From assembly GCA_024635455.1 (NCBI GenBank), contig JAGXIU010000003.1, positions 3,966-67,965 on the forward strand: a stretch of 64,000 nt of DNA, in the 5' to 3' direction. The notes under the pieces are model-generated. The model was not told the DNA's origin, ran no database searches, and was given only the letters and a program-made list of their open reading frames with translations. The number at the start of each line of letters is the position of its first letter. Position 1 is the stretch's first letter. Positions 2,726 to 62,448 of this stretch are shown here, one piece after another. Position numbers and translations under genes: made by a program. Source of the DNA: Candidatus Saccharimonadota bacterium. GTDB taxonomy: Bacteria; Patescibacteriota; Saccharimonadia; Saccharimonadales; SLHW01.

Positions 2726-2998
2726 CTATTCGACGGTAACTTCTGTGCGTGGTGCGGTTTTGCCGCTAAAGAGCTTGAAACGGCGTTTGTTAAAGCGTAC
2801 GACACCGTCTTTGGCAGCATGAATAGTGAAATCTCGGCTCATGAATGTACCGACACCTGGACGTTTATTTGATCCAGCTTGACGAATAATAATTTGACCA
2901 GTTTTGACTGGTTCACCACCAAATAGCTTAACGCCGAGTCGTCTACCGGCACTATCGCGGTTATTTCTGCTGGATCCACCTGCTTTTACTTTACTCAT
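2726..2998 (-). CDS. rpmA: 50S ribosomal protein L27
   Basis: [29 protein letters not shown]...IIIRQAGS is a typical L27 N-terminus. Length 90 aa. Confidence 0.95.
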
Positions 2999-3193
2999 TT
3001 TGACCTCTTGTCAGTCGGCCTGCTTGCTAGCGGAGCTATCAACCCCGCCGACTTCTCGGCACATTACTGCGTCAGAACCGTCGCTTTTCACTCAACGTAG
3101 TATGTCTACGTCTCGCTAAAAAAAGCTCGCTTCTTCCTTGTACTGTATCCAAGCAAGTGGCCAAAACTGTATTCTTAAATTACGTGCTATGTT

Positions 3194-4534
3194 TTACGTC
3201 CGGGTGAGGACGACGAGTTCACGCCCAACGATTTGACCTTCTCTGTGATAGATAAGCTCTGAATCTTTAGCATGCACAAAACTCACACGATTATAACCTA
3301 GTTCATCAAGAGATTCAAGCACTTTAAGGTGTCGAAACGAATTATGTACGCGCCAGGCCGGCACCGCAATACACATTCGAAAGCCAGCCTCGGTTTGTCG
3401 GGCAACGTTTCGGAGGAATTTTCGATGGATCGTATCGACATCCTGCATGACTTTTTGTAAGGTTCGATCATCTGGTAAAGCAGAGAAGGGGCGACCAAGA
3501 TACGTCTCGGCTGCAATTGTGTCGAACGTGGCATCCCAGGTAGCGCTTGTTGCGTCTGCCTCTAGAACTGTTATGTTGCTTTGCTCTATATCACCATCGG
3601 AAATATCATCGCTGAGGGCGTTGAGCCAGGCTAAGTTTTTTTGGCTATATGCAACCATGCGTTCATCAATGTCTGAGCCAATAGCTCCGTAGTTCATGAG
3701 TGTTGCTTCTTGCAGAATGACACCGGTGCCGCAAAAAGGATCCAACACAGTGATGAAGGTCTCGTTACTTTGCCAATCAAAGCTCGACATGTGACGAGGA
3801 TCTTGAGCGAGCTCTTTGTTCGTAGCGCTATCTTGTTCCTCAGGTTCTTTCTCTGTGATTGTAGATTTCTGTCGAGACGGCGTGAATGAGCTGGCGGCGA
3901 GGTTTATGATGATTTGCGCTAGCTTTGGTGGTAGCATACCGACTTTAGCGTCGCGCATTGGTCGAGCTTGGTCACGAGCAGCGTAGGCTTCAATATCTTG
4001 GACTGCGACCGTCTGTCCAAAATGCACCAAGCCATCTTGCTCCGATTTGCTGATAATGAGCTCTAAGCCTTTTTCTGCGGTAAGTTTGTTATGTATAACC
4101 TGTGCAGTAGAGAGCTCTAGGCTTTTGTTAGGAATAATACGGACTGACTTACCATCTGCGCGTAACTTCTTTTTGATACGTAAGAATGTTTTCTCGATTT
4201 GCTTAATCGGTACCTGCATGCCGTATACGCTACAGCCAAGTTTAATCTTGCCTTCTGGGTAATCTTTGAGCTGTAAGGGAAGTGTTTGTAGCAGATACTC
4301 CTCGATAGCGGGCCAGTTCGCCTTTGGGCTGCTGCTCAAGAGTCGGGCTATTTTTGTGGTGCCGCCTAATGAGTCGATCATTGCTCTCGTTGGGTGGACT
4401 CCCACTTCTGCAGCCTGTTTATTTTGCGCAACTACACTATCCGCACCAAAGCGACTCTCTAGCTCTACTAGACTAATGGCTGGTTGCCGGCCAAGGATAC
4501 AAAGTGATTTCATGTCTGTATTGTACCTGCTCAA
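3194..4534 (-). CDS. SAM-dependent RNA methyltransferase, UPF0020/Trm-G10-like (putative tRNA/rRNA N2-guanine MTase)
   Basis: SAM motif I LDPFCGTGVILQEA. Upstream PMRDAKVGMLPPKLAQIIINLA is typical of the UPF0020 family. Carries an acidic insertion before motif I. Confidence 0.6.
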   Translation of the reverse strand: MSRYNTDMKSLCILGRQPAISLVELESRFGADSVVAQNKQAAEVGVHPTRAMIDSLGGTTKIARLLSSSPKANWPAIEEYLLQTLPLQLKDYPEGKIKLGCSVYGMQVPIKQIEKTFLRIKKKLRADGKSVRIIPNKSLELSTAQVIHNKLTAEKGLELIISKSEQDGLVHFGQTVAVQDIEAYAARDQARPMRDAKVGMLPPKLAQIIINLAASSFTPSRQKSTITEKEPEEQDSATNKELAQDPRHMSSFDWQSNETFITVLDPFCGTGVILQEATLMNYGAIGSDIDERMVAYSQKNLAWLNALSDDISDGDIEQSNITVLEADATSATWDATFDTIAAETYLGRPFSALPDDRTLQKVMQDVDTIHRKFLRNVARQTEAGFRMCIAVPAWRVHNSFRHLKVLESLDELGYNRVSFVHAKDSELIYHREGQIVGRELVVLTRT

Positions 4535-43886: not shown

Positions 43887-45656
43887 TTACTTTTGATTTG
43901 TCATTGCTTCCTGTGAGGAAATCCTCGGTAGGTTTATGTAAAAGGTGCTTCCCTCGCCTACTTTGCTTTCTACCCATATTCGGCCATTGTAGATTTCTAT
44001 AATTTTTCGGCAAATAAATAAGCCAAGACCCGTGCCGCCAATGGTACGAGTCGCAGAATTGTCTACTCGGTAGAACTTTTGGAACAGGTGAGGTACATCC
44101 TCGGCTGGTATGCCTGGGCCGGTATCTTTAATGAATAGTTGAATGATGTCGTTGTTGCCAGTCAGGCCGATTGAGATTTTGCCCGACTCAGTGTATTTCA
44201 CCGCGTTGTCAAATAAGTTGGTTATAACCTCACTAAGCCTGTCCGGGTCAGCCATCGCGTAGTAGAGAGGTTTTATTGTCTTTCCGCCGGCCACAGATCC
44301 ATCAGCGTCTGTATTCTCAGCAGAGCCAACTACAACATCAACCAACAGGCCCTTCTTCTCTGCTGTAAATCGCAGATCATCGGCTAATTTTTCTATGTAT
44401 TCACCAATCTCTACAACTGTCGGGTGGCTGACTAGTCGGCCATCTTCGGCTTTTGCGCTGGTTAATAAGTCCTGGAACAGTTTCCCGAGGTGTTTCGTAC
44501 TGGAATAAGCCTTGTTTAGGTAGTTTCTGGCGCTATTATCAATTTTGCTTACCTTTTCGTTCAGGGCGAGTGCGAGGTACCCTTCAATTGCAGCTACCGG
44601 TGTGCGCATTTCGTGGCTTGCAGTACTAATAAAGTCTGCGCGCCGAGCCTCTTCTTCTCTAGCGGCACTGACATCACGTACGACCGCGACAGCTCCAGCC
44701 AGCTCTTCGTTGCCAGGAATATTTATTGGAGAAACAGCTATCGATACTGTGCGTTTTTTGTCATCTCTGCCAATCAGTTGAGCGATCTTTTCGATAGATT
44801 GTCGGCTTGCTAGTACTTGAGTAAATATATTTTCTTGTTCAGGTATCTCTTTGCCATCTTCTTCGCGTAGATCCATGACTGTCTTCACATCAATATTGGC
44901 TGACTCATCAACTGGCCATCCAGTCATTTCAGCTGCCGCTGGGTTAGTGATCGAAATCTTTCCTTTGGTGTCTGTTACAACAATACCATCAGTTATTGAC
45001 TGAATGAGGACGTCAGAAAGCTGCTGACGACTTTTCAATTGTCCGGTTAAGCGCTCGACCTCGACATCTTTTGGATCGACATAAAAACGTCGCCAAACAA
45101 ACCAACTTACATACGACAATACATAGGTACCGACCAGGACGATTATTCCTCGAGTATCCAGTAAGGGTTTTGATTCGTTCACGCCATTGAAGGCAGATAC
45201 TTTCAGTAAGACAAAATAAAACGTCATAATGAATGAAGGTGCTGCCGCTATGGCTGGTCCAAGTATGCCACCCAGAAGACAAATTATTGCCCATACTAAT
45301 ACCCAATCAGAGTGTAGTCCTCCGCTAGCATGCATTAGGCTCACAACATTAAGGGTAAGCAGAGCCCCGAGGATTGCCGGTGGGAGGTGTCGGCTTGTCC
45401 GCTCTGCAAAAGCGTAGAATGCCAGGCCAAAAACAATTGCAATAAAAGCAATACCAGCCTGCAGTGGAGTAATTGCTGTCAGTAAATCGAGAAAATCAGG
45501 AAAGCGGTCGCTATACACAAATTGAGCACCAAATGCGACGAGTAGAAGACCTTGTATGCCGATTGTTGTGTATTTGTATAAATGTAGCCAGCGTTCGCTT
45601 GCAATATGCATTTTGTGAACAGCCCACCTGTCGTTATGGTTTATAAGCTTAAACAC
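43887..45656 (-). CDS. Sensor histidine kinase (polytopic N-terminus, PAS, HisKA, HATPase_c)
   Basis: About 6 TM helices, PAS-like ITDGIVVTDTKGKISITNPAAAEMTGW, H-box FISTASHEMRTPVAAIEGY, N box NLFDNAVKY, G boxes DTGPGI and GGTGLGL. Confidence 0.85.
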   Translation of the reverse strand: MFKLINHNDRWAVHKMHIASERWLHLYKYTTIGIQGLLLVAFGAQFVYSDRFPDFLDLLTAITPLQAGIAFIAIVFGLAFYAFAERTSRHLPPAILGALLTLNVVSLMHASGGLHSDWVLVWAIICLLGGILGPAIAAAPSFIMTFYFVLLKVSAFNGVNESKPLLDTRGIIVLVGTYVLSYVSWFVWRRFYVDPKDVEVERLTGQLKSRQQLSDVLIQSITDGIVVTDTKGKISITNPAAAEMTGWPVDESANIDVKTVMDLREEDGKEIPEQENIFTQVLASRQSIEKIAQLIGRDDKKRTVSIAVSPINIPGNEELAGAVAVVRDVSAAREEEARRADFISTASHEMRTPVAAIEGYLALALNEKVSKIDNSARNYLNKAYSSTKHLGKLFQDLLTSAKAEDGRLVSHPTVVEIGEYIEKLADDLRFTAEKKGLLVDVVVGSAENTDADGSVAGGKTIKPLYYAMADPDRLSEVITNLFDNAVKYTESGKISIGLTGNNDIIQLFIKDTGPGIPAEDVPHLFQKFYRVDNSATRTIGGTGLGLFICRKIIEIYNGRIWVESKVGEGSTFYINLPRISSQEAMTNQK

Positions 45657-45740
45657 GATTATACGTTAAAAACCGACATTTTTACATGGTATATCTGGGA
45701 AAATTACCTACAACTGTGGTAGTATAGGGCTCGAACTTAT

Positions 45741-45815
45741 GGCCTCATCGTCTAACGGCTAGGACACCAGGTTCTCATCCTGGCAATCGGGGTTCGATTC
45801 CCCGTGAGGTCACCA
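45741..45815 (+). tRNA. tRNA-Glu (anticodon CUC), CCA encoded
   Basis: Manual cloverleaf: acceptor GGCCUCA/UGAGGUC, anticodon stem CCAGG/CCUGG with loop UUCUCAU, T arm CGGGG-UUCGAUU-CCCCG, discriminator A, CCA. Confidence 0.9.
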
Positions 45816-45824
45816 ATGAAAGTG

Positions 45825-45847
45825 CCCCACCTTGTGTGGGGTTTTTT
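45825..45847 (+). terminator. Rho-independent terminator after tRNA-Glu
   Basis: Stem CCCCAC/GTGGGG, then TTTTTT. Nested within a longer helix CACCAATGAAA/TTTCATTGGTG (45811-45855). Confidence 0.7.
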
Positions 45848-45855
45848 CATTGGTG

Positions 45856-46037
45856 CGTTCCATGCAATGGAACAATCGAACACCCAGGTTCGAAGACAAG
45901 GAGCTCACGCAGATGCTTGCATCGAGTAAGCTCCGCAGGCGCATCGACTGAAAGGAGATATTCCCCGTGAGGTCACGCGCAGAAGTTTACTTCGAGCATG
46001 GCAAAGCAATCTTTCCTCCTCTTCTCATCCTGGCAAT
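45856..46037 (+). repeat. Structured module carrying duplicated tRNA-Glu fragments (att-scar / CIME-like)
   Basis: ATTCCCCGTGAGGTCAC at 45960-45976 equals tRNA positions 45797-45813. TTCTCATCCTGGCAAT at 46022-46037 equals 45772-45787. Conserved core at 45887-45926 is shared with the tRNA-Ser locus. Confidence 0.6.
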
Positions 46038-46094
46038 ATCGCCAAAAATGAAGGATGCTACACTAGTGTTATACTGAAGCGTAAGGAGAATGCT

Positions 46095-46802
46095 ATGAAA
46101 TTAAATCAAAAGGGCTATAGCGTAATCGAAATAGTACTCGTATTAGTTATAGTTGGGTTAATCGGAACAGTTGGGTGGCTGGTATACGATCGCCAAAATA
46201 ATAAAGCAGAAAATAATGAGACCACTAACGCACGACAGGCAGAAGATGATGAGACTACCAGCGCACAACAGGTAGAAGATGATGATTCCCGAGAAACCAC
46301 TAAGGAGTCTGACTATAAGACGCATGATGGTATCAAATATACAGTGCCAACAGATTGGGTAGGTGCTAAGGGGCCATTCAAAGATTCTGAAATAGAGGTC
46401 GGTGGTCAATATCTCCTAAGTCCTGATTACGAGGAAGCTGGTGGAGGACAACTATTCATAGAGGCCGGTGCTTATATAAACTTTCAGAAACTTGAGTGGG
46501 CTGGTATAGATAAAAACACTTCGGTAGAACAGGCCGCAAGTGTCGTAAAAAATGGTGAAGGCGGTTATCTTGACTCGGATTCAGTAGAGGTATCAAAAGT
46601 AGGAGATGTTCAGGTTGTCATGTTTGACGCTGGGCATACGACTGACGGTGTAACCGTATTTTATAAAACATCTAACGGTCAGTGGTTGGACGCAAGTTTC
46701 AGCACCACAACAGGCGGTGACGGAAACTATAATGCTCAAGACAGCCCACACTATAAGACCTTTCTTGCGTGGCTAGAGTTATTCACTGAACTTAACTCAT
46801 AG
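46095..46802 (+). CDS. Type IV pilin-like (prepilin N-terminal motif) protein
   Basis: AAGGAGAA Shine-Dalgarno sequence. MKLNQKGYSVIEIVLVLVIVGLIG resembles the class III signal G|(F/Y)(S/T)xxE plus a hydrophobic helix. Acidic NETT/DDETT repeat follows. Confidence 0.65.
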   Translation: MKLNQKGYSVIEIVLVLVIVGLIGTVGWLVYDRQNNKAENNETTNARQAEDDETTSAQQVEDDDSRETTKESDYKTHDGIKYTVPTDWVGAKGPFKDSEIEVGGQYLLSPDYEEAGGGQLFIEAGAYINFQKLEWAGIDKNTSVEQAASVVKNGEGGYLDSDSVEVSKVGDVQVVMFDAGHTTDGVTVFYKTSNGQWLDASFSTTTGGDGNYNAQDSPHYKTFLAWLELFTELNS

Positions 46803-46892
46803 CACAACATTGGCCATCAGTCTTAGCTAGTAATCTATTCCAGCGTATAATCTTGTGACAGAATAAGCTCTATTCCCCCGTGAAGGATAAAT

Positions 46893-46922
46893 AAACCCGA
46901 CAATCTATAGTGTGTCGGGTTT
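46893..46922. repeat. Palindromic hairpin element AAACCCGACA-N10-TGTCGGGTTT (probable bidirectional terminator), copy 1
   Basis: Lies between convergent genes (46802 and 46944). Near-identical copy at 62514-62543. Confidence 0.65.
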
Positions 46923-46943
46923 AGCCAGTTTTACGATTTTGTG

Positions 46944-47345
46944 TTAGCCAACGCCATTAAGAAACTCAACCAGTTGCTTAGGGGTAATCTCAGCTTTAAT
47001 AATATAAGCATCTGCTTGACGTTCAATAGCTGTCTTGTTTTCTTCGCTTTGCTCTAAGTTTGTGGTGACGATTATTTTCGCCCGAATTGGTTTCTCTGCC
47101 TTATCGCGTAGTTTTTCCAGTATCTCCGTCCCAGTAATTGTAGGCACCATGATATCGAGTAGGATAATATCGTAGGCATCGGTTTGAGCCTTCTGTAGAC
47201 CAGCGGCGCCGTCAATCGTTAAATCAACTTCATAACCAGCTCGTTTGAGTGCTCGGACATACAGCTCACTAATGAAGTACTCGTCCTCAATGATGAGTAC
47301 TTTTCTGCTGATTTGTTCGGCTGGTGCTGTTTGTTCTTGGTCCAT
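46944..47345 (-). CDS. Stand-alone response-regulator receiver domain
   Basis: VLIIEDE, YDIILLDIMVPTITG, IIVTT. Lies immediately downstream of a histidine kinase gene. Confidence 0.85.
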   Translation of the reverse strand: MDQEQTAPAEQISRKVLIIEDEYFISELYVRALKRAGYEVDLTIDGAAGLQKAQTDAYDIILLDIMVPTITGTEILEKLRDKAEKPIRAKIIVTTNLEQSEENKTAIERQADAYIIKAEITPKQLVEFLNGVG

Positions 47346-55799: not shown

Positions 55800-55884
55800 G
55801 GCGCTGTGGCGGAATTGGTATACGCGCATGACTCAAAATCGTGTGGGGCAACCCTTGTCGGTTCGAGTCCGACCAGCGCTACCA
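55800..55884 (+). tRNA. tRNA-Leu (anticodon CAA), CCA encoded
   Basis: Manual fold: acceptor GGCGCUG/CAGCGCU, anticodon stem CAUGA/UCGUG with loop CUCAAAA, long variable arm, T arm GUCGG-UUCGAGU-CCGAC. Confidence 0.9.
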
Positions 55885-62171: not shown

Positions 62172-62358
62172 AAGATATGACCACCCCTCTCCTGGCGGAG
62201 AGGGAGGGATGACATCGTTGCCACTGCACTGATGCTCGATGCAAGCATCTGCGCGTCAGCTTGCGTCACCGAACCCTTCCGCTTCCAGCGGATACGGGTT
62301 CGTATCCTTTCTCCAAAAGAGAAACGGCCATACCATAAAGATATGACCGCTTCTCTCC
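62172..62358 (-). repeat. Structured module ending in a duplicate of the tRNA-Ser 3' end plus flank (att-scar / CIME-like)
   Basis: 62172-62210 is 35/39 identical to 62338-62376 (tRNA-Ser T-loop to CCA plus 21 nt of 3' flank), a direct repeat with a 166-bp period. Core at 62235-62275 is homologous to 45887-45926. Confidence 0.65.
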
Positions 62359-62448
62359 TGGCGGAGAGAGAGGGATTCGAACCCTCGAAACGGTTGCCCG
62401 TTTACACGCTTTCCAAGCGTGCGCCTTCAGCCACTCGGCCACCTCTCC
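62359..62448 (-). tRNA. tRNA-Ser (anticodon GGA), CCA encoded
   Basis: Manual fold of the reverse complement: GGAGAGG acceptor, anticodon stem CACGC/GCGUG with loop UUGGAAA, long variable arm, T arm GAGGG-UUCGAAU-CCCUC. Confidence 0.9.

What the first reader, a model, noticed from the sequence alone, without database searches (positions are those of the whole stretch)
45741..46037. tRNA-Glu is followed by a hairpin-rich module carrying two displaced fragments of the same tRNA
Downstream of tRNA-Glu and its terminator lie three strong hairpins: 45859-45875 (GTTCCAT/ATGGAAC), 45876-45893 (TCGAAC/GTTCGA), and 45899-45933 (GGAGCT...AGCTCC enclosing GATGC-TT-GCATC). After these comes an exact 17-nt copy of the tRNA T-loop-to-acceptor 3' strand (45960-45976). 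A further 45 nt on is an exact 16-nt copy that starts precisely at the anticodon loop (46022-46037). T-loop and anticodon-loop start points are the two classical crossover sublocations of tRNA-targeting tyrosine integrases. The locus therefore looks like nested att scars, yet the enclosed elements are only ~150-220 bp and have no integrase.
Basis: partly seen in the sequence, partly recalled or inferred. Interest (0 to 1): 0.6.

Follow-up and report, generated by a model that had tools for sequence, protein, structure and literature searches.

The report
Hairpin module family trailing tRNA genes
The tRNA fragment behind this tRNA-Glu gene is the end piece of a previously undescribed ~150-base hairpin module that sits behind tRNA genes of nearly every kind in Saccharibacteria, each copy carrying inverted and direct copies of its own tRNA's 3' part, and that behaves like inserted DNA rather than a simple integrase scar.

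Summary
In detail: exact 17-nt (45960-45976) and 16-nt (46022-46037) copies of tRNA-Glu(CTC), plus the hairpins (two are 1-2 nt off the stated coordinates). The "nested att scars" reading is only partly right.

The hairpin stretch plus the 17-nt copy is one member of a large family. Its layout is: tRNA, a terminator that pairs with the CCA end, an inverted T-arm copy, a small hairpin, a direct copy ending at G57, a conserved core hairpin (P4), and a direct copy from A58 to CCA.

- A second copy sits behind tRNA-Ser in this window (62193-62358, minus strand).
- In metagenomes, P4 lies about 77-130 nt behind tRNAs of about 29 anticodon types, usually followed by that tRNA's own 3' end.
- The helices covary.
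- G·T outnumbers A·C on the tRNA-sense strand.
- Loops are GNA triloops, typical of DNA mini-hairpins.
- The same tRNA-Glu-to-response-regulator gap is 60 nt (empty) to over 2 kb in relatives, with tandem modules and single-gene cargo.
- No recombinase is linked, and there is no match in Rfam, phages, plasmids or viral contigs.

Best reading (about 0.45): small insertional DNA acting as a folded single strand. A functional RNA is the main rival. The 16-nt fragment remains unexplained.

The parts
45741..45815 (+). tRNA-Glu(CTC), CCA encoded; the target/reference sequence
   Evidence: ARAGORN; Rfam RF00005, 58.6 bits
45811..45855 (+). Extended intrinsic-terminator hairpin. The 5' arm CACCAATGAAAGTGCCCCAC includes the tRNA's last 5 nt; the 3' arm GTGGGGTTTTTTCATTGGTG ends in TGGTG.
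   Evidence: Sequence; terminator scan. RNAalifold on 19 species pairs CCA with TGG in 17-19 of 19 and shows covariation in the adjoining pairs.
45851..45885 (+). I: inverted, degenerate copy of the tRNA 3' third (TGGTG ... AATCGAACACCC). Hairpin 1 (45857-45873, GNA-type loop GCA) replaces the part that would be antisense to the acceptor/T-stem 3' strand.
   Evidence: In 40 units from many tRNAs the inverted copy matches tRNA positions about 48-66 at 55-95%. Hairpin 1 has a compensatory T-A to C-G change in L002.
45876..45893 (+). Hairpin 2: TCGAAC (end of I) pairs with GTTCGA (D). D (45884-45893, CCAGGTTCGA) is the direct copy of the T-stem 5' strand plus TTCGA.
   Evidence: The family-wide D copy ends sharply at G57: match 0.82 at G57, 0.38 at the next base.
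45894..45959 (+). CORE, subtype A: AGACAAGG; P4 (45900-45934: outer stem GGAGCT/AGCTCC, conserved internal loop CACGCAG / CGAGTA, inner stem ATG-CTTG-CAT); then hairpin ATCGACT-GAA-AGGAGAT (45943-45959) with tandem G·A.
   Evidence: Model R1, built only from metagenome units, hits 45902-45932 (27.1 bits, E = 1e-4). P4 covariation.
45960..45976 (+). DR: direct copy of the tRNA from A58 (T-loop) to the acceptor 3' strand. 17 of the 19 nt seen in relatives (L002 has the full ATTCCCCGTGAGGTCACCA).
   Evidence: A copy with 3 or fewer mismatches is present within 400 nt in 22 of 111 Saccharibacteria tRNA-Glu loci, always matching the species' own T-stem variant.
45967..46007 (+). Second P4 core (GCGCAG-AAGT-TTA-ACTT-CGAGCA-TGGC) whose 5' strand is supplied by the end of the DR (GTGAGGTCA). 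It lacks its own I, D, last hairpin and DR.
   Evidence: R1 hit 33.9 bits, E = 2e-6; regex hit
46022..46037 (+). 16-nt copy of the tRNA anticodon loop through the variable region, inside the inverted repeat CATCCT (46026-46031) / AGGATG (46052-46057). Origin unresolved.
   Evidence: With the next base it is a 17-nt match to the 'CTGGCAATAGGGG' tRNA-Glu variant of other lineages. Similar CATCCTGG..AGGATG hairpins sit upstream of tRNA-Glu in L010 and L012.
46067..46075 (+). TGTTATACT, an extended -10-like motif 20 nt before the ribosome-binding site of the ORF (read by eye)
   Evidence: Sequence; the consensus scan did not list it, so this is weak
46095..46802 (+). Cargo ORF, 235 aa, with a type IV pilin-like N-terminus (KGYSVIEIVLVLVIVGLIG). 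Absent from the same slot in the closest relative L002.
   Evidence: No Pfam hit. TIGR02532 scores 15.5 bits against a cut-off of 16.3 here, and 19.5 bits for the L129 counterpart, which also lies just after a DR. Absent in L002.
46872..46886 (+). Third, degenerate copy of the tRNA 3' fragment (ATTCCCCCGTGAAGG), closing the variable segment
   Evidence: by eye; one inserted C and mismatches
46893..46922 (.). Conserved terminator hairpin of the convergent response-regulator gene; homology with L002 resumes here
62193..62358 (-). Sister module behind tRNA-Ser(GGA) (62359-62448): terminator, I-like GGAGAAAGGATACGAACCC, hairpin, D GGGTTCG, core with P4 CGCGCAGATGCTTGCATCGAGCA (62255-62233), and DR ATCCCTCCCTCTCCGCCA (62210-62193).
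   Evidence: R1 full-length hit 51.7 bits, E = 6.5e-11

Best explanation
Window 45816-45976 is one copy of a family of small non-coding 'tRNA-trailing modules' in Saccharibacteria.

**Unit layout**
- its own intrinsic terminator, whose stem pairs with the tRNA's NCCA end;
- I, an inverted copy of the T-arm and part of the acceptor 3' strand;
- H, a small hairpin with a GNA triloop;
- D, a direct copy of the T-stem 5' strand ending at G57;
- a conserved core (P4, a long irregular hairpin, plus subtype-specific helices);
- DR, a direct copy from A58 to CCA.

**Proposed origin (inferred)**
The unit is inserted, selfish or semi-domesticated DNA.
- As a folded single strand of tRNA sense, I can pair with D and with the 58-76 block. 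This imitates the double-stranded T-arm and 3' end of its target gene, with the core branching out at position 57/58.
- A recombinase or nuclease encoded elsewhere would exchange strands within the 58-76 block.
- The incoming unit would then give the tRNA a new 3' end and terminator. The old 3' end would be pushed downstream, becoming the 17-nt 'fragment'.
- Repeated events would give tandem units and trap single-gene cargo such as the pilin-like ORF.

**Shown:** the anatomy, family membership, strand-specific single-strand folding, covariation, presence/absence across relatives, tandem and cargo arrays, and generality across tRNAs.

**Inferred:** that the element is mobile DNA, that the active form is single-stranded DNA, where the strands are exchanged, and which enzyme acts.
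For: **Family and anatomy**
- 22 of 111 Saccharibacteria tRNA-Glu(CTC) loci have the 3'-end copy within 400 nt. It always starts in the T-loop and matches the species' own T-stem variant.
- The same P4 core lies 77-131 nt (a few farther) behind tRNAs of about 29 anticodon types. In 40 cases (P4 within 200 nt of the tRNA end) it is followed by that tRNA's own last 19 nt with 2 or fewer mismatches.
- D ends at G57, DR starts at 58/59, and I covers about 48-66.
- Model R1, built without window sequence, finds three cores in the window, all behind tRNA-Glu and tRNA-Ser. It finds 12 in 733 kb of reference loci, all behind tRNA-Glu.

**Structure under selection, on one strand**
- In the subtype-B alignment, 98.8% of cells pair versus 82.4% in shuffles. 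The covariation score is 0.499 versus 0.197 (0 of 500 shuffles reach it). Slid registers give 22-38%.
- P4a position 1 is A-T in 52, G-C in 51 and T-A in 15 instances. Across P4b and P4a positions 1, 2, 4 and 5, G·T outnumbers A·C 32 to 9.

**Single-stranded DNA rather than RNA**
- 49 of 66 module hairpin loops are triloops. 28 are GNA and none are GNRA or UNCG.
- Terminators in the same units have 0 GNA, 5 GNRA and 1 UNCG.
- GCGNAGC/d(GNA) hairpins are the classic ultra-stable DNA mini-hairpins (PMC13037366, PMC3201870).

**Insertional behaviour**
- The orthologous tRNA-Glu-to-RR gap ranges from 60-61 nt (empty) to 2235 nt.
- Window/L002 homology breaks exactly at the DR.
- Tandem units of different subtypes occur in L002, L011 and L145.
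- Cargo ORFs are bracketed by repeats in L129, L061, L082 and L042.
- The DR plus the following terminator are duplicated identically over about 59 nt in L247 and L212. In L146, L099, L145 and L050 the second terminator is unrelated, as expected if the unit brings its own.
- The core also sits inside otherwise complete tRNA copies at 57/58 (L262, L183, L209, L266).
- Relatives' contigs break inside the tRNA end or the module.
- In this lineage the DR decays about as fast as neutral DNA (16-19 of 19).
Against: - No recombinase, transposase or TnpB-like gene is linked. 30 window ORFs gave none. A jackhmmer search with a viral integrase found nothing. Clustering of 713 neighbouring ORFs showed no recurrent mobile-element protein.
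- No free, circular, phage or plasmid copy was seen.
- How a unit acquires I, D and DR that match a new tRNA type is unexplained.
- Close lineages share the module at about the same divergence as flanking DNA (window vs L002, about 92%). So in this clade it is inherited vertically and need not be active.
- L010, whose kinase is only 68% identical, keeps the left part at about 86%. That could mean purifying selection, i.e. function.
- Each unit lies between two terminators on the tRNA strand, and P4 with G(CUUG)C loops and tandem G·A pairs would also suit an RNA.
- Stand-alone P4 copies occur just after promoter-like motifs in L203 and L208.
The taxonomy of those contigs was not verified.
Confidence: 0.45

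Rival explanations
1. A functional non-coding RNA. The module is transcribed with, or just after, the tRNA, by terminator read-through or from its own start. It folds into the P4-centred structure and ends in a mimic of the tRNA's T-stem 3' strand, acceptor strand and CCA. It could act in tRNA 3'-end maturation or quality control, or as a decoy or sensor for something that reads tRNA 3' ends. I and D would set up alternative pairings.
For: - Same strand as the tRNA.
- Strong covariation, and G·U allowed only on that strand.
- Conserved irregular internal loop, G(CUUG)C loops and a purine-rich G·A helix.
- A second terminator often follows the DR.
- Insertion point 57/58 is where T-loop motifs tolerate insertions (own knowledge).
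- P4 also occurs right after promoter-like motifs in 5'-UTR-like positions in L203 and L208.
- The left part is 86% conserved between lineages whose kinase is 68% identical.
Against: - It sits directly behind a good intrinsic terminator, with no room for a promoter.
- Presence is patchy for the same tRNA across species (22 of 111) and among tRNAs of one genome (2 of 3 in the window).
- Empty orthologous sites exist.
- Tandem copies and decayed copies occur.
- The DR decays at a near-neutral rate in the window's lineage.
- The loop repertoire is GNA triloops with no GNRA/UNCG, unlike the terminators next to them.
- No Rfam family matches, even at E up to 10.
Confidence: 0.3
2. Classical scars of tyrosine-integrase islands. 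Elements with an integrase integrated at the T-loop and anticodon-loop sublocations and later lost almost all their DNA, leaving short att-flanked remnants.
For: - Direct repeat of the tRNA 3' end, and a variable segment beyond it.
- Integrase-bearing viral contigs carry a partial tRNA-Glu(CTC) attP. Oral Saccharimonas loci carry that phage's flank right after the tRNA.
- In L012, an ORF-bearing insert separates the tRNA from an old 3' end plus terminator plus hairpin.
Against: - Remnants would be unrelated random leftovers. Here the 'remnant' is one conserved, covarying structure found behind about 29 tRNA types.
- Every unit contains an inverted T-arm copy and a second direct copy ending at G57.
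- No integrase was found near any of more than 150 loci.
- The P4 pattern has 0 hits in 2.9 million viral contigs.
Confidence: 0.07
3. A by-product of break repair or replication at palindromic tRNA terminators. Fold-back priming at the terminator hairpin copies the tRNA 3' part in inverted and then direct orientation (an inverted triplication). The core spreads among such sites by template switching through the universal GGTTCGA / ATCC T-loop microhomology, with no dedicated enzyme.
For: - The axis of the direct-inverted symmetry is the terminator loop.
- The tip of the terminator is flipped to its exact reverse complement between the window and L010 (note).
- Long exact duplications of DR plus terminator occur in L247 and L212.
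- The junctions lie at the most conserved tRNA sequence.
Against: - It does not explain conserved H and core sequences with covariation and strand-biased G·T.
- It does not explain the regular order and spacing across hundreds of independent loci, or units that bring an unrelated terminator.
Confidence: 0.1
4. Chance similarity or assembly artefact.
For: None beyond the short length of the copies.
Against: - Shuffle tests.
- Recurrence in independent assemblies from JGI, NCBI, ENA and Logan.
- Lineage-specific T-stem variants are copied faithfully.
Confidence: 0.01

Closest known systems
Integron attC sites and cassette arrays
   Same: - A structured, strand-specific site conserved in shape more than in sequence.
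- The order R''-L''-variable tip-L'-R' maps onto I(76-58)-I(57-44)-H-D-DR.
- A short core repeat marks every unit boundary.
- Units may be empty or hold one promoter-poor ORF.
- Folding mimics a double-stranded core site.
   Different: - No intI, attI or Pc nearby, and no GTTRRRY core.
- The arms are copies of the adjacent tRNA gene rather than generic boxes.
- A 60-90-nt conserved core occupies the central-spacer position.
- Arrays start at tRNA genes of many kinds.
CTXphi/IMEX folded single-strand attP (Xer-dependent integration)
   Same: - Two inverted target-like sequences fold into a hairpin that imitates the chromosomal target.
- Integration leaves target, inverted copy and direct copy in that order, and allows tandem accretion.
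- The enzyme is host-encoded and unlinked.
   Different: - The target is a tRNA T-arm/3' end, not dif.
- The element is 110-190 nt with no genes.
- No phage copy was found, and Xer involvement is untested.
tRNA-targeting genomic islands and CIME-type accretion (Islander-type islands; T-loop and anticodon-loop sublocations)
   Same: - A direct repeat of the tRNA 3' end running from the T-loop to CCA.
- The incoming DNA restores the tRNA.
- Tandem build-up occurs next to the tRNA, and the site is a variable hot spot (PMC4383910 describes the general pattern).
   Different: - No integrase, and units are 100 times smaller.
- The same body is used at about 29 tRNA types.
- Each unit contains an inverted copy and a split direct copy of the target.
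REP/BIME elements and IS200/IS605-derived palindromic MITEs (PATEs)
   Same: - Small non-coding hairpin elements in intergenic 3' regions that are strand-specific.
- They act as single-stranded DNA and are mobilised in trans by one unlinked enzyme.
   Different: - Those carry fixed ends and a 4-5-nt target.
- They do not contain long copies of the flanking gene.
- No Y1 transposase or RAYT was seen here.
Guide-carrying mobile-element RNAs (TnpB omega RNA, IS110 bridge RNA, delocalised homing crRNA of type V-K CAST that targets tRNA genes)
   Same: - A conserved scaffold followed or interrupted by segments that match the insertion target.
- The target-matching parts differ from copy to copy while the scaffold stays the same.
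   Different: - No nuclease or recombinase gene.
- The segments are 10-19 nt, in both orientations, and lie inside helices.
- No Rfam match, and the loop types point to DNA.
Non-canonical tRNA introns in the T-loop (archaeal BHB introns)
   Same: An insertion of 60-95 nt exactly in the T-loop of a tRNA sequence; in L262 the tRNA is otherwise intact.
   Different: - The host is bacterial.
- The insertion usually sits in a partial 3' copy behind an intact gene.
- The subtype-B junction would leave TTCG|TAT, with A58 lost.
- No BHB motif is evident.

Membership tests
Tyrosine-integrase island at a tRNA gene | Integrase gene inside the element, next to the tRNA | tested here: not met
   Pfam on 30 window ORFs including all neighbours; jackhmmer with a viral tRNA-Glu integrase against all ORFs of the window and loci; neighbour clustering
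Tyrosine-integrase island at a tRNA gene | Direct repeat of the tRNA 3' segment at the far end of the inserted DNA | tested here: met
Tyrosine-integrase island at a tRNA gene | Presence/absence of the insert among relatives (empty site) | tested here: met
   tRNA-to-RR gap of 60-61 nt in L116 and L036 versus 170-2235 nt in others. These relatives are distant, so no strain-level empty allele was seen.
Integron (attC cassette array) | intI integrase with attI and Pc at the head of the array | tested here: not met
   No Phage_integrase hit near the tRNA
Integron (attC cassette array) | attC: imperfect palindrome R''-L''...L'-R' with GTTRRRY/RYYYAAC cores | tested here: not met
   The topology is analogous, but the core consensus is absent from the sequence (by eye)
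Any described RNA family (Rfam 15) | Covariance-model match | tested here: not met
   Only the tRNA reaches gathering score. At E up to 10 on 45600-46950 there is nothing credible in the module.
MITE / insertion sequence | Element-encoded terminal inverted repeats and a short fixed-length target duplication | tested here: not met
   The inverted parts are copies of the neighbouring tRNA and differ for each tRNA. The duplicated target is 17-59 nt.
IS200/IS605-type single-strand elements (PATE) / REP-RAYT | Y1 HUH transposase in the genome and subterminal hairpins with a 4-5-nt cleavage motif | not testable with these tools
   Only 64 kb of the genome is available. Hairpins with DNA-type loops are present, but no transposase was seen.
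Self-splicing or BHB tRNA intron | Removal restores a canonical 7-nt T-loop with A58 | tested here: inconclusive
   Subtype A junctions (GGTTCGA|...|ATTCC) could restore it. Subtype B junctions give TTCG|TATCC with T at position 58. No splicing data.
CRISPR / tandem guide arrays | Regular repeat-spacer array | tested here: not met
   No tandem array in L203. Units behind tRNAs number 1-3 and are heterogeneous.

The most novel reading that the evidence does not exclude
tRNA genes of Saccharibacteria are docking platforms for a new class of tiny, gene-less elements. Their recombination site is a folded single strand that imitates its own target. The inverted segment I acts as a reprogrammable, base-pairing 'address' for one tRNA gene. 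The core (P4) recruits an unlinked enzyme. The same reaction lets single genes, such as pilin-like surface proteins, be captured and stacked behind tRNAs. This would amount to an integron-like or guide-like system built from tRNA sequence.
Probability: 0.25. Interest if true: 0.9.

Novelty: categorically new. Interest (0 to 1): 0.8.

Why it matters
If this holds, a whole layer of genome architecture in Saccharibacteria, and perhaps other ultra-small bacteria, has gone unannotated. A structured roughly 150-nt unit follows many tRNA genes and carries three target-derived segments interleaved with a conserved scaffold.

- **If it is mobile DNA:** it shows a way to address any tRNA gene by sequence copying or complementarity without a linked recombinase. 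It also points to a route for gene capture in organisms that depend on DNA uptake. Both could be tested with synthetic single strands and candidate enzymes.
- **If it is an RNA:** it would be a new, widespread tRNA-end mimic.
- **In practice:** these units explain recurrent contig breaks at tRNA genes in Saccharibacteria assemblies. They also interrupt some tRNA copies in the T-loop, which then go uncalled by tRNA finders.

Tried and rejected
- **Rfam:** gathering thresholds on the whole window, and E up to 10 on the locus. Only tRNAs matched.
- **Viral contigs:** the full T-loop-to-CCA 23-mer gave 0 hits. A 15-mer gave 22 hits, mostly chance, but did reveal integrase plus partial tRNA-Glu attP contigs. 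The P4 pattern gave 0 hits.
- **Phage and plasmid collections:** blastn found no match.
- **Exact-protein look-ups:** none on record for the pilin-like ORF or the trimmed kinase.
- **Integrase hunt:** jackhmmer and Pfam found nothing in the window or loci.
- **Neighbour-protein clustering around about 150 modules:** only syntenic housekeeping genes recurred.
- **Flanks of the 16-nt fragment:** blastn-short found only the tRNAs themselves.
- **Tandem-repeat search on L203:** nothing.
- **Literature:** four full-text searches found no description of such an element.

**Ideas considered and dropped**
- Self-cleaving ribozyme, tmRNA or Y-RNA-like mimic: no model match.
- K-turn reading of the P4 loop: the register does not fit.
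- 5'-UTR riboswitch for the pilin gene: L076 and others have the module with no downstream gene.
- Retroviral-type primer-binding site: the G·T bias puts folding on the tRNA-sense strand, and no reverse transcriptase was seen.
Full report
**1. What is in the window**

ARAGORN and Rfam place tRNA-Glu(CTC) at 45741-45815 with CCA encoded.

- ATTCCCCGTGAGGTCAC occurs at 45797-45813 and again at 45960-45976.
- TTCTCATCCTGGCAAT occurs at 45772-45787 and again at 46022-46037.
- No shuffle of the window gave a second match to the 17-mer, even with three mismatches allowed.
- Only 0.4% of sampled 75-mers in the window have an exact repeat of 16 nt or more in the following 300 nt.

The three hairpins exist. 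Hairpin 1 is at 45857-45873 and hairpin 3 at 45900-45934, slightly off the stated coordinates.

The window is a core chromosomal region of a Saccharibacteria (TM7) bacterium.
- Neighbours are two-component kinases and regulators, gltX, der, dprA and cell-wall genes.
- The nearest kinase homologues carry Saccharibacteria names.

**2. The relatives change the picture**

I fetched the same locus from relatives through the upstream histidine kinase.

In L002 (kinase 87% identical), the terminator, all hairpins and a 19-nt copy ATTCCCCGTGAGGTCACCA are present at about 92% identity.
- Hairpin 1 carries a compensatory change.
- Homology to the window stops exactly after the copy and resumes only at the terminator of the convergent response-regulator gene.
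- The pilin-like ORF of the window is absent. In its place are a second, different hairpin module and other DNA.

The window itself has a third, degenerate copy of the fragment (46872-46886) just before that conserved terminator.

Several relatives' contigs end inside the tRNA 3' end or inside the module. That is what a repeated or polymorphic site does to assemblies.

**3. A family behind tRNA-Glu**

I scanned one genome per species with the tRNA's 5' part, which returned 119 loci.
- Of 111 with enough downstream DNA, 22 have a copy (3 or fewer mismatches) of the tRNA's last 19 nt within 400 nt.
- The copy always starts in the T-loop.
- It always carries that species' own T-stem variant: CTCCA, CTCCG, CCCCT, CCCGG or CCCCG.

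Between tRNA and copy the same parts recur:
- a terminator whose stem extends to pair the tRNA's NCCA with TGGN';
- a short hairpin;
- a CGAACC...GGTTCG hairpin;
- a core with the motif C[GA]C[GA]CAG, then a stem-loop, then CGAG[CT]A (P4).

The orthologous gap between tRNA-Glu and the response-regulator gene varies widely:

| Locus | Gap (nt) | Content |
|---|---|---|
| L116, L036 | 60-61 | terminator only |
| L076 | 170 | one module |
| L010 | 211 | one module |
| L011 | 445 | two modules |
| L002 | 612 | two modules plus other DNA |
| window | 1131 | module, second core, pilin-like ORF |
| L012 | 2235 | two ORFs and a decayed module |

Cargo cases are instructive.
- **L129:** tRNA, unit, DR, pilin-like ORF, a second unit 96% identical to the first, then an exact DR.
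- **L061:** tRNA, ORF, a decayed tRNA end, terminator, module, then an exact DR.

**4. Not a tRNA-Glu matter**

The window's tRNA-Ser(GGA) (62359-62448, minus strand) is followed by the same architecture. The P4 sequence is nearly identical (CGCGCAGATGCTTGCATCGAGCA), but the flanking parts are derived from tRNA-Ser. It ends in ATCCCTCCCTCTCCGCCA.

- Of 123 hits, 75 lie 77-131 nt (a few farther) behind a same-strand tRNA.
- These tRNAs cover about 29 anticodon types.
- In 40 units (P4 within 200 nt of the tRNA end), that tRNA's own last 19 nt follow at +40 to +57 with 2 or fewer mismatches.
- About seven hits are chance matches in GC-rich coding DNA.

A covariance model built only from 18 metagenome units performs as follows:
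- tRNA-Ser module of the window: 51.7 bits (E = 6.5e-11).
- A second core overlapping the 17-nt copy (45967-46007): 33.9 bits.
- The first core (45902-45932): 27.1 bits.
- Nothing else in the 64 kb.
- In 733 kb of reference loci, all 12 hits lie just behind tRNA-Glu.

**5. Anatomy in tRNA numbering**

I aligned 40 units to their own tRNAs.
- The direct copy D covers the T-stem 5' strand and TTCG. It ends sharply at G57: match 0.82 there, 0.38 at the next base.
- The terminal copy DR starts at 58/59 and runs to CCA.
- The segment after the terminator, I, is an inverted copy of about positions 48-66. It continues more weakly into the acceptor strand and the TGG that pairs with CCA.

In the window, I is TGGTG...AATCGAACACCC. 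Hairpin 1 replaces its middle part.

So the layout is tRNA, terminator, I, small hairpin H, D, core, DR. On one strand, I can pair with D and with the 58-66 part of DR. This rebuilds the duplex of the T-arm gene segment, with the core branching off at 57/58.

Core subtypes share P4 and differ elsewhere:
- A: AAGACAAGG...GCGCATCG...GAT.
- B: GTGGAGCGAGG...GCAGCGGAGAAGG plus a hairpin.
- D: ATAATC...GATTATA.
- C: inserted at 51/52.

**6. Structure, strand, and DNA versus RNA**

On the subtype-B alignment:
- 98.8% of cells pair, versus 82.4% in shuffles.
- The covariation score is 0.499 versus 0.197 (0 of 500 shuffles reach it).
- Slid registers give only 22-38%.

Position 2 of the P4 5' motif covaries with the penultimate base of the 3' motif (G..C versus A..T). 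A 2-bp GC/GC to AT/AT mini-helix sits among G·A pairs.

Over 129 distinct P4 instances, G·T is far commoner than A·C in the helices. The only A·C-rich position is explained by a bulged-A subtype. Folding is therefore selected on the tRNA-sense strand as a single strand.

Loop types differ between module hairpins and terminators:

| Hairpin set | Triloops | GNA | GNRA | UNCG |
|---|---|---|---|---|
| Module hairpins (66 loops) | 49 | 28 (often GCGAAGC/GCGCAGC) | 0 | 0 |
| Terminators of the same units (39 loops) | 5 | 0 | 5 | 1 |

GCGNAGC and d(GNA) hairpins are the textbook ultra-stable DNA mini-hairpins (PMC13037366, PMC3201870). I take this as a hint, not proof, that the selected form is single-stranded DNA.

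**7. Other contexts of the core**

P4-bearing cores also interrupt otherwise complete tRNA copies at 57/58.
- **L262:** tRNA-Ser(CGA), cloverleaf otherwise intact.
- **L183:** a pseudo-tRNA-Asp just upstream of an intact tRNA-Asp.
- **L209 and L266:** the same arrangement for tRNA-Thr.

In L162, a core follows the D-arm of a 5' fragment upstream of an intact tRNA-Ser.

L010, L012, L082, L085 and L123 carry upstream pieces of tRNA-Glu (5' part, an insert, CATCCTGG and its inverted complement) ending near the tRNA promoter.

In L203 and L208, P4 stands right after promoter-like TAGTATAGC / TGTGATTATAGC. It is accompanied by repeated 38-nt GATATCCCAAAGG...GACGACGGATAGCAA units, in L203 ahead of a DedA-like gene.

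**8. The second fragment**

The 16-nt anticodon-loop copy is real, but I could not assign it to a pair of att sites.
- Nothing resembling the rest of the tRNA follows it.
- Counting the next base, it is a 17-nt match to the CTGGCAATAGGGG variant of tRNA-Glu found in other lineages. It may have arrived with foreign DNA.
- It lies in a CATCCT/AGGATG inverted repeat like those of the upstream pieces in L010 and L012.
- It is followed by TGTTATACT, a ribosome-binding site and the pilin-like ORF.

Separately, integrase-bearing viral contigs (L019, L027, L016) carry a partial tRNA-Glu(CTC) from the anticodon stem to CCA. Oral Saccharimonas loci carry that phage's flank directly after the tRNA. Anticodon-loop integration at this tRNA therefore does occur in the phylum, but that is not what the window shows.

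**9. What it most likely is**

No recombinase, transposase or RNA-guided nuclease is linked. No phage, plasmid or viral copy exists in the collections searched.

I favour, at about 0.45, insertional DNA that acts as a folded single strand, in the manner of integron attC sites or the CTXphi attP.
- The unit would carry a replacement 58-76 block and terminator for the tRNA.
- Strand exchange in that block would place it between G57 and the old 3' end.
- The old end becomes the displaced copy.
- The predicted order (tRNA, optional cargo and terminator, I, H, D, core, DR, flank) is the observed one.
- Units that bring an unrelated terminator (L146, L099, L145, L050), tandem units and cargo fit this.

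Points that do not fit or remain open:
- How I, D and DR come to match each new tRNA is not explained.
- In the window's own clade the module looks vertically inherited.
- The left arm is better conserved toward L010 than neutral DNA should be.

The main rival, at about 0.3, is a functional RNA that ends in a tRNA 3'-end mimic. Classical integrase scars (0.07), a repair by-product (0.1) and chance (0.01) are less likely.

**10. Limits**

The taxonomy of those contigs was not checked.
- The 'empty' sites come from distant relatives.
- E-values of the home-made model are rough.
- The promoter-like motifs and the third degenerate copy were read by eye.
- Four literature searches are not an exhaustive check of prior description.

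Noticed in passing
window 62193-62448 (minus strand): tRNA-Ser(GGA) is followed by a full sister module. After its terminal copy, about 26 nt (62192-62168) repeat the sequence that follows the tRNA itself (62358-62333), so the duplicated block extends past CCA into the terminator.
   Followed up: yes
window 55800-55884: tRNA-Leu(CAA) has no module and no copies of itself nearby, although tRNA-Leu(CAA) genes in other organisms (L167, L218) do. Presence is patchy within a genome.
   Followed up: partly
window 45825-45841 vs L010 (about 3548-3564, minus strand): The tip of the terminator hairpin is flipped. ACCTTGTGT in the window is ACACAAGGT, its exact reverse complement, in L010, while the arms and hairpins 1-2 stay about 86% identical although the kinases are only 68% identical.
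   Followed up: no
L262 (oriented position about 2900-3110, minus strand): A tRNA-Ser(CGA) with an otherwise intact cloverleaf is interrupted by a subtype-B core exactly in the T-loop. ARAGORN does not call it, and no intact twin lies next to it. It could be an inactivated dispensable gene or an intron-like case.
   Followed up: partly
L183, L209, L266, L162: Pseudo-tRNA copies (Asp, Thr, Ser) carrying a P4 core lie 30-60 nt upstream of the intact tRNA of the same kind. L209's intact tRNA-Thr also has a downstream module with an internal 60-nt duplication.
   Followed up: partly
L203 6030-6190; L208: P4 stands directly after promoter-like TAGTATAGC / TGTGATTATAGC and is followed by two copies of a 38-nt unit CAGATATCCCAAAGGAGCGAAGCGACGACGGATAGCAA, in L203 just before a DedA-like membrane protein gene. 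The same unit occurs inside some tRNA-trailing modules (L084, L234).
   Followed up: partly
L010 3700-3775, L012 3770-3860 (minus strand); also L082, L085, L123: Upstream of tRNA-Glu there are pieces of its 5' half (positions 1-31), then an insert with a hairpin, then CATCCTGG and its inverted complement, ending near the tRNA promoter. This mirrors the downstream modules.
   Followed up: partly
L019, L027, L016, L028 (IMG/VR contigs); L045, L066, L069, L113, L144: Viral contigs carry a tyrosine integrase followed by a partial tRNA-Glu(CTC) from the anticodon stem to CCA (attP-like). Oral Saccharimonas genomes carry the same phage flank (ATTTGATAATTGAGACTG) right after their tRNA-Glu.
   Followed up: partly
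L169: A tRNA-Glu(TTC) gene carries the same subtype-A module as the tRNA-Glu(CTC) of L002. The two tRNAs share their 3' third. The module is followed by another terminator and the start of a further unit.
   Followed up: no
L121, L122, L099, L118: A different insert (subtype C, TGAG-hairpin-GCAAGG..., about 95 nt) enters the tRNA-Glu sequence at position 51/52 instead of 57/58. In L121 and L122 it sits in a copy holding tRNA positions 1-51, upstream of an intact tRNA.
   Followed up: partly
L001, L003-L009: Contigs of close relatives from several assemblers end within the tRNA 3' end, inside the module, or just past the response-regulator gene. This locus is a systematic assembly breakpoint.
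   Followed up: partly
window 46095-46802 and L129 cargo ORF: Both ORFs that sit right after a terminal copy have a prepilin-type N-terminus (TIGR02532 scores 15.5 and 19.5 bits against a cut-off of 16.3) but unrelated C-terminal parts. Variable pilin-like proteins may be typical cargo.
   Followed up: partly
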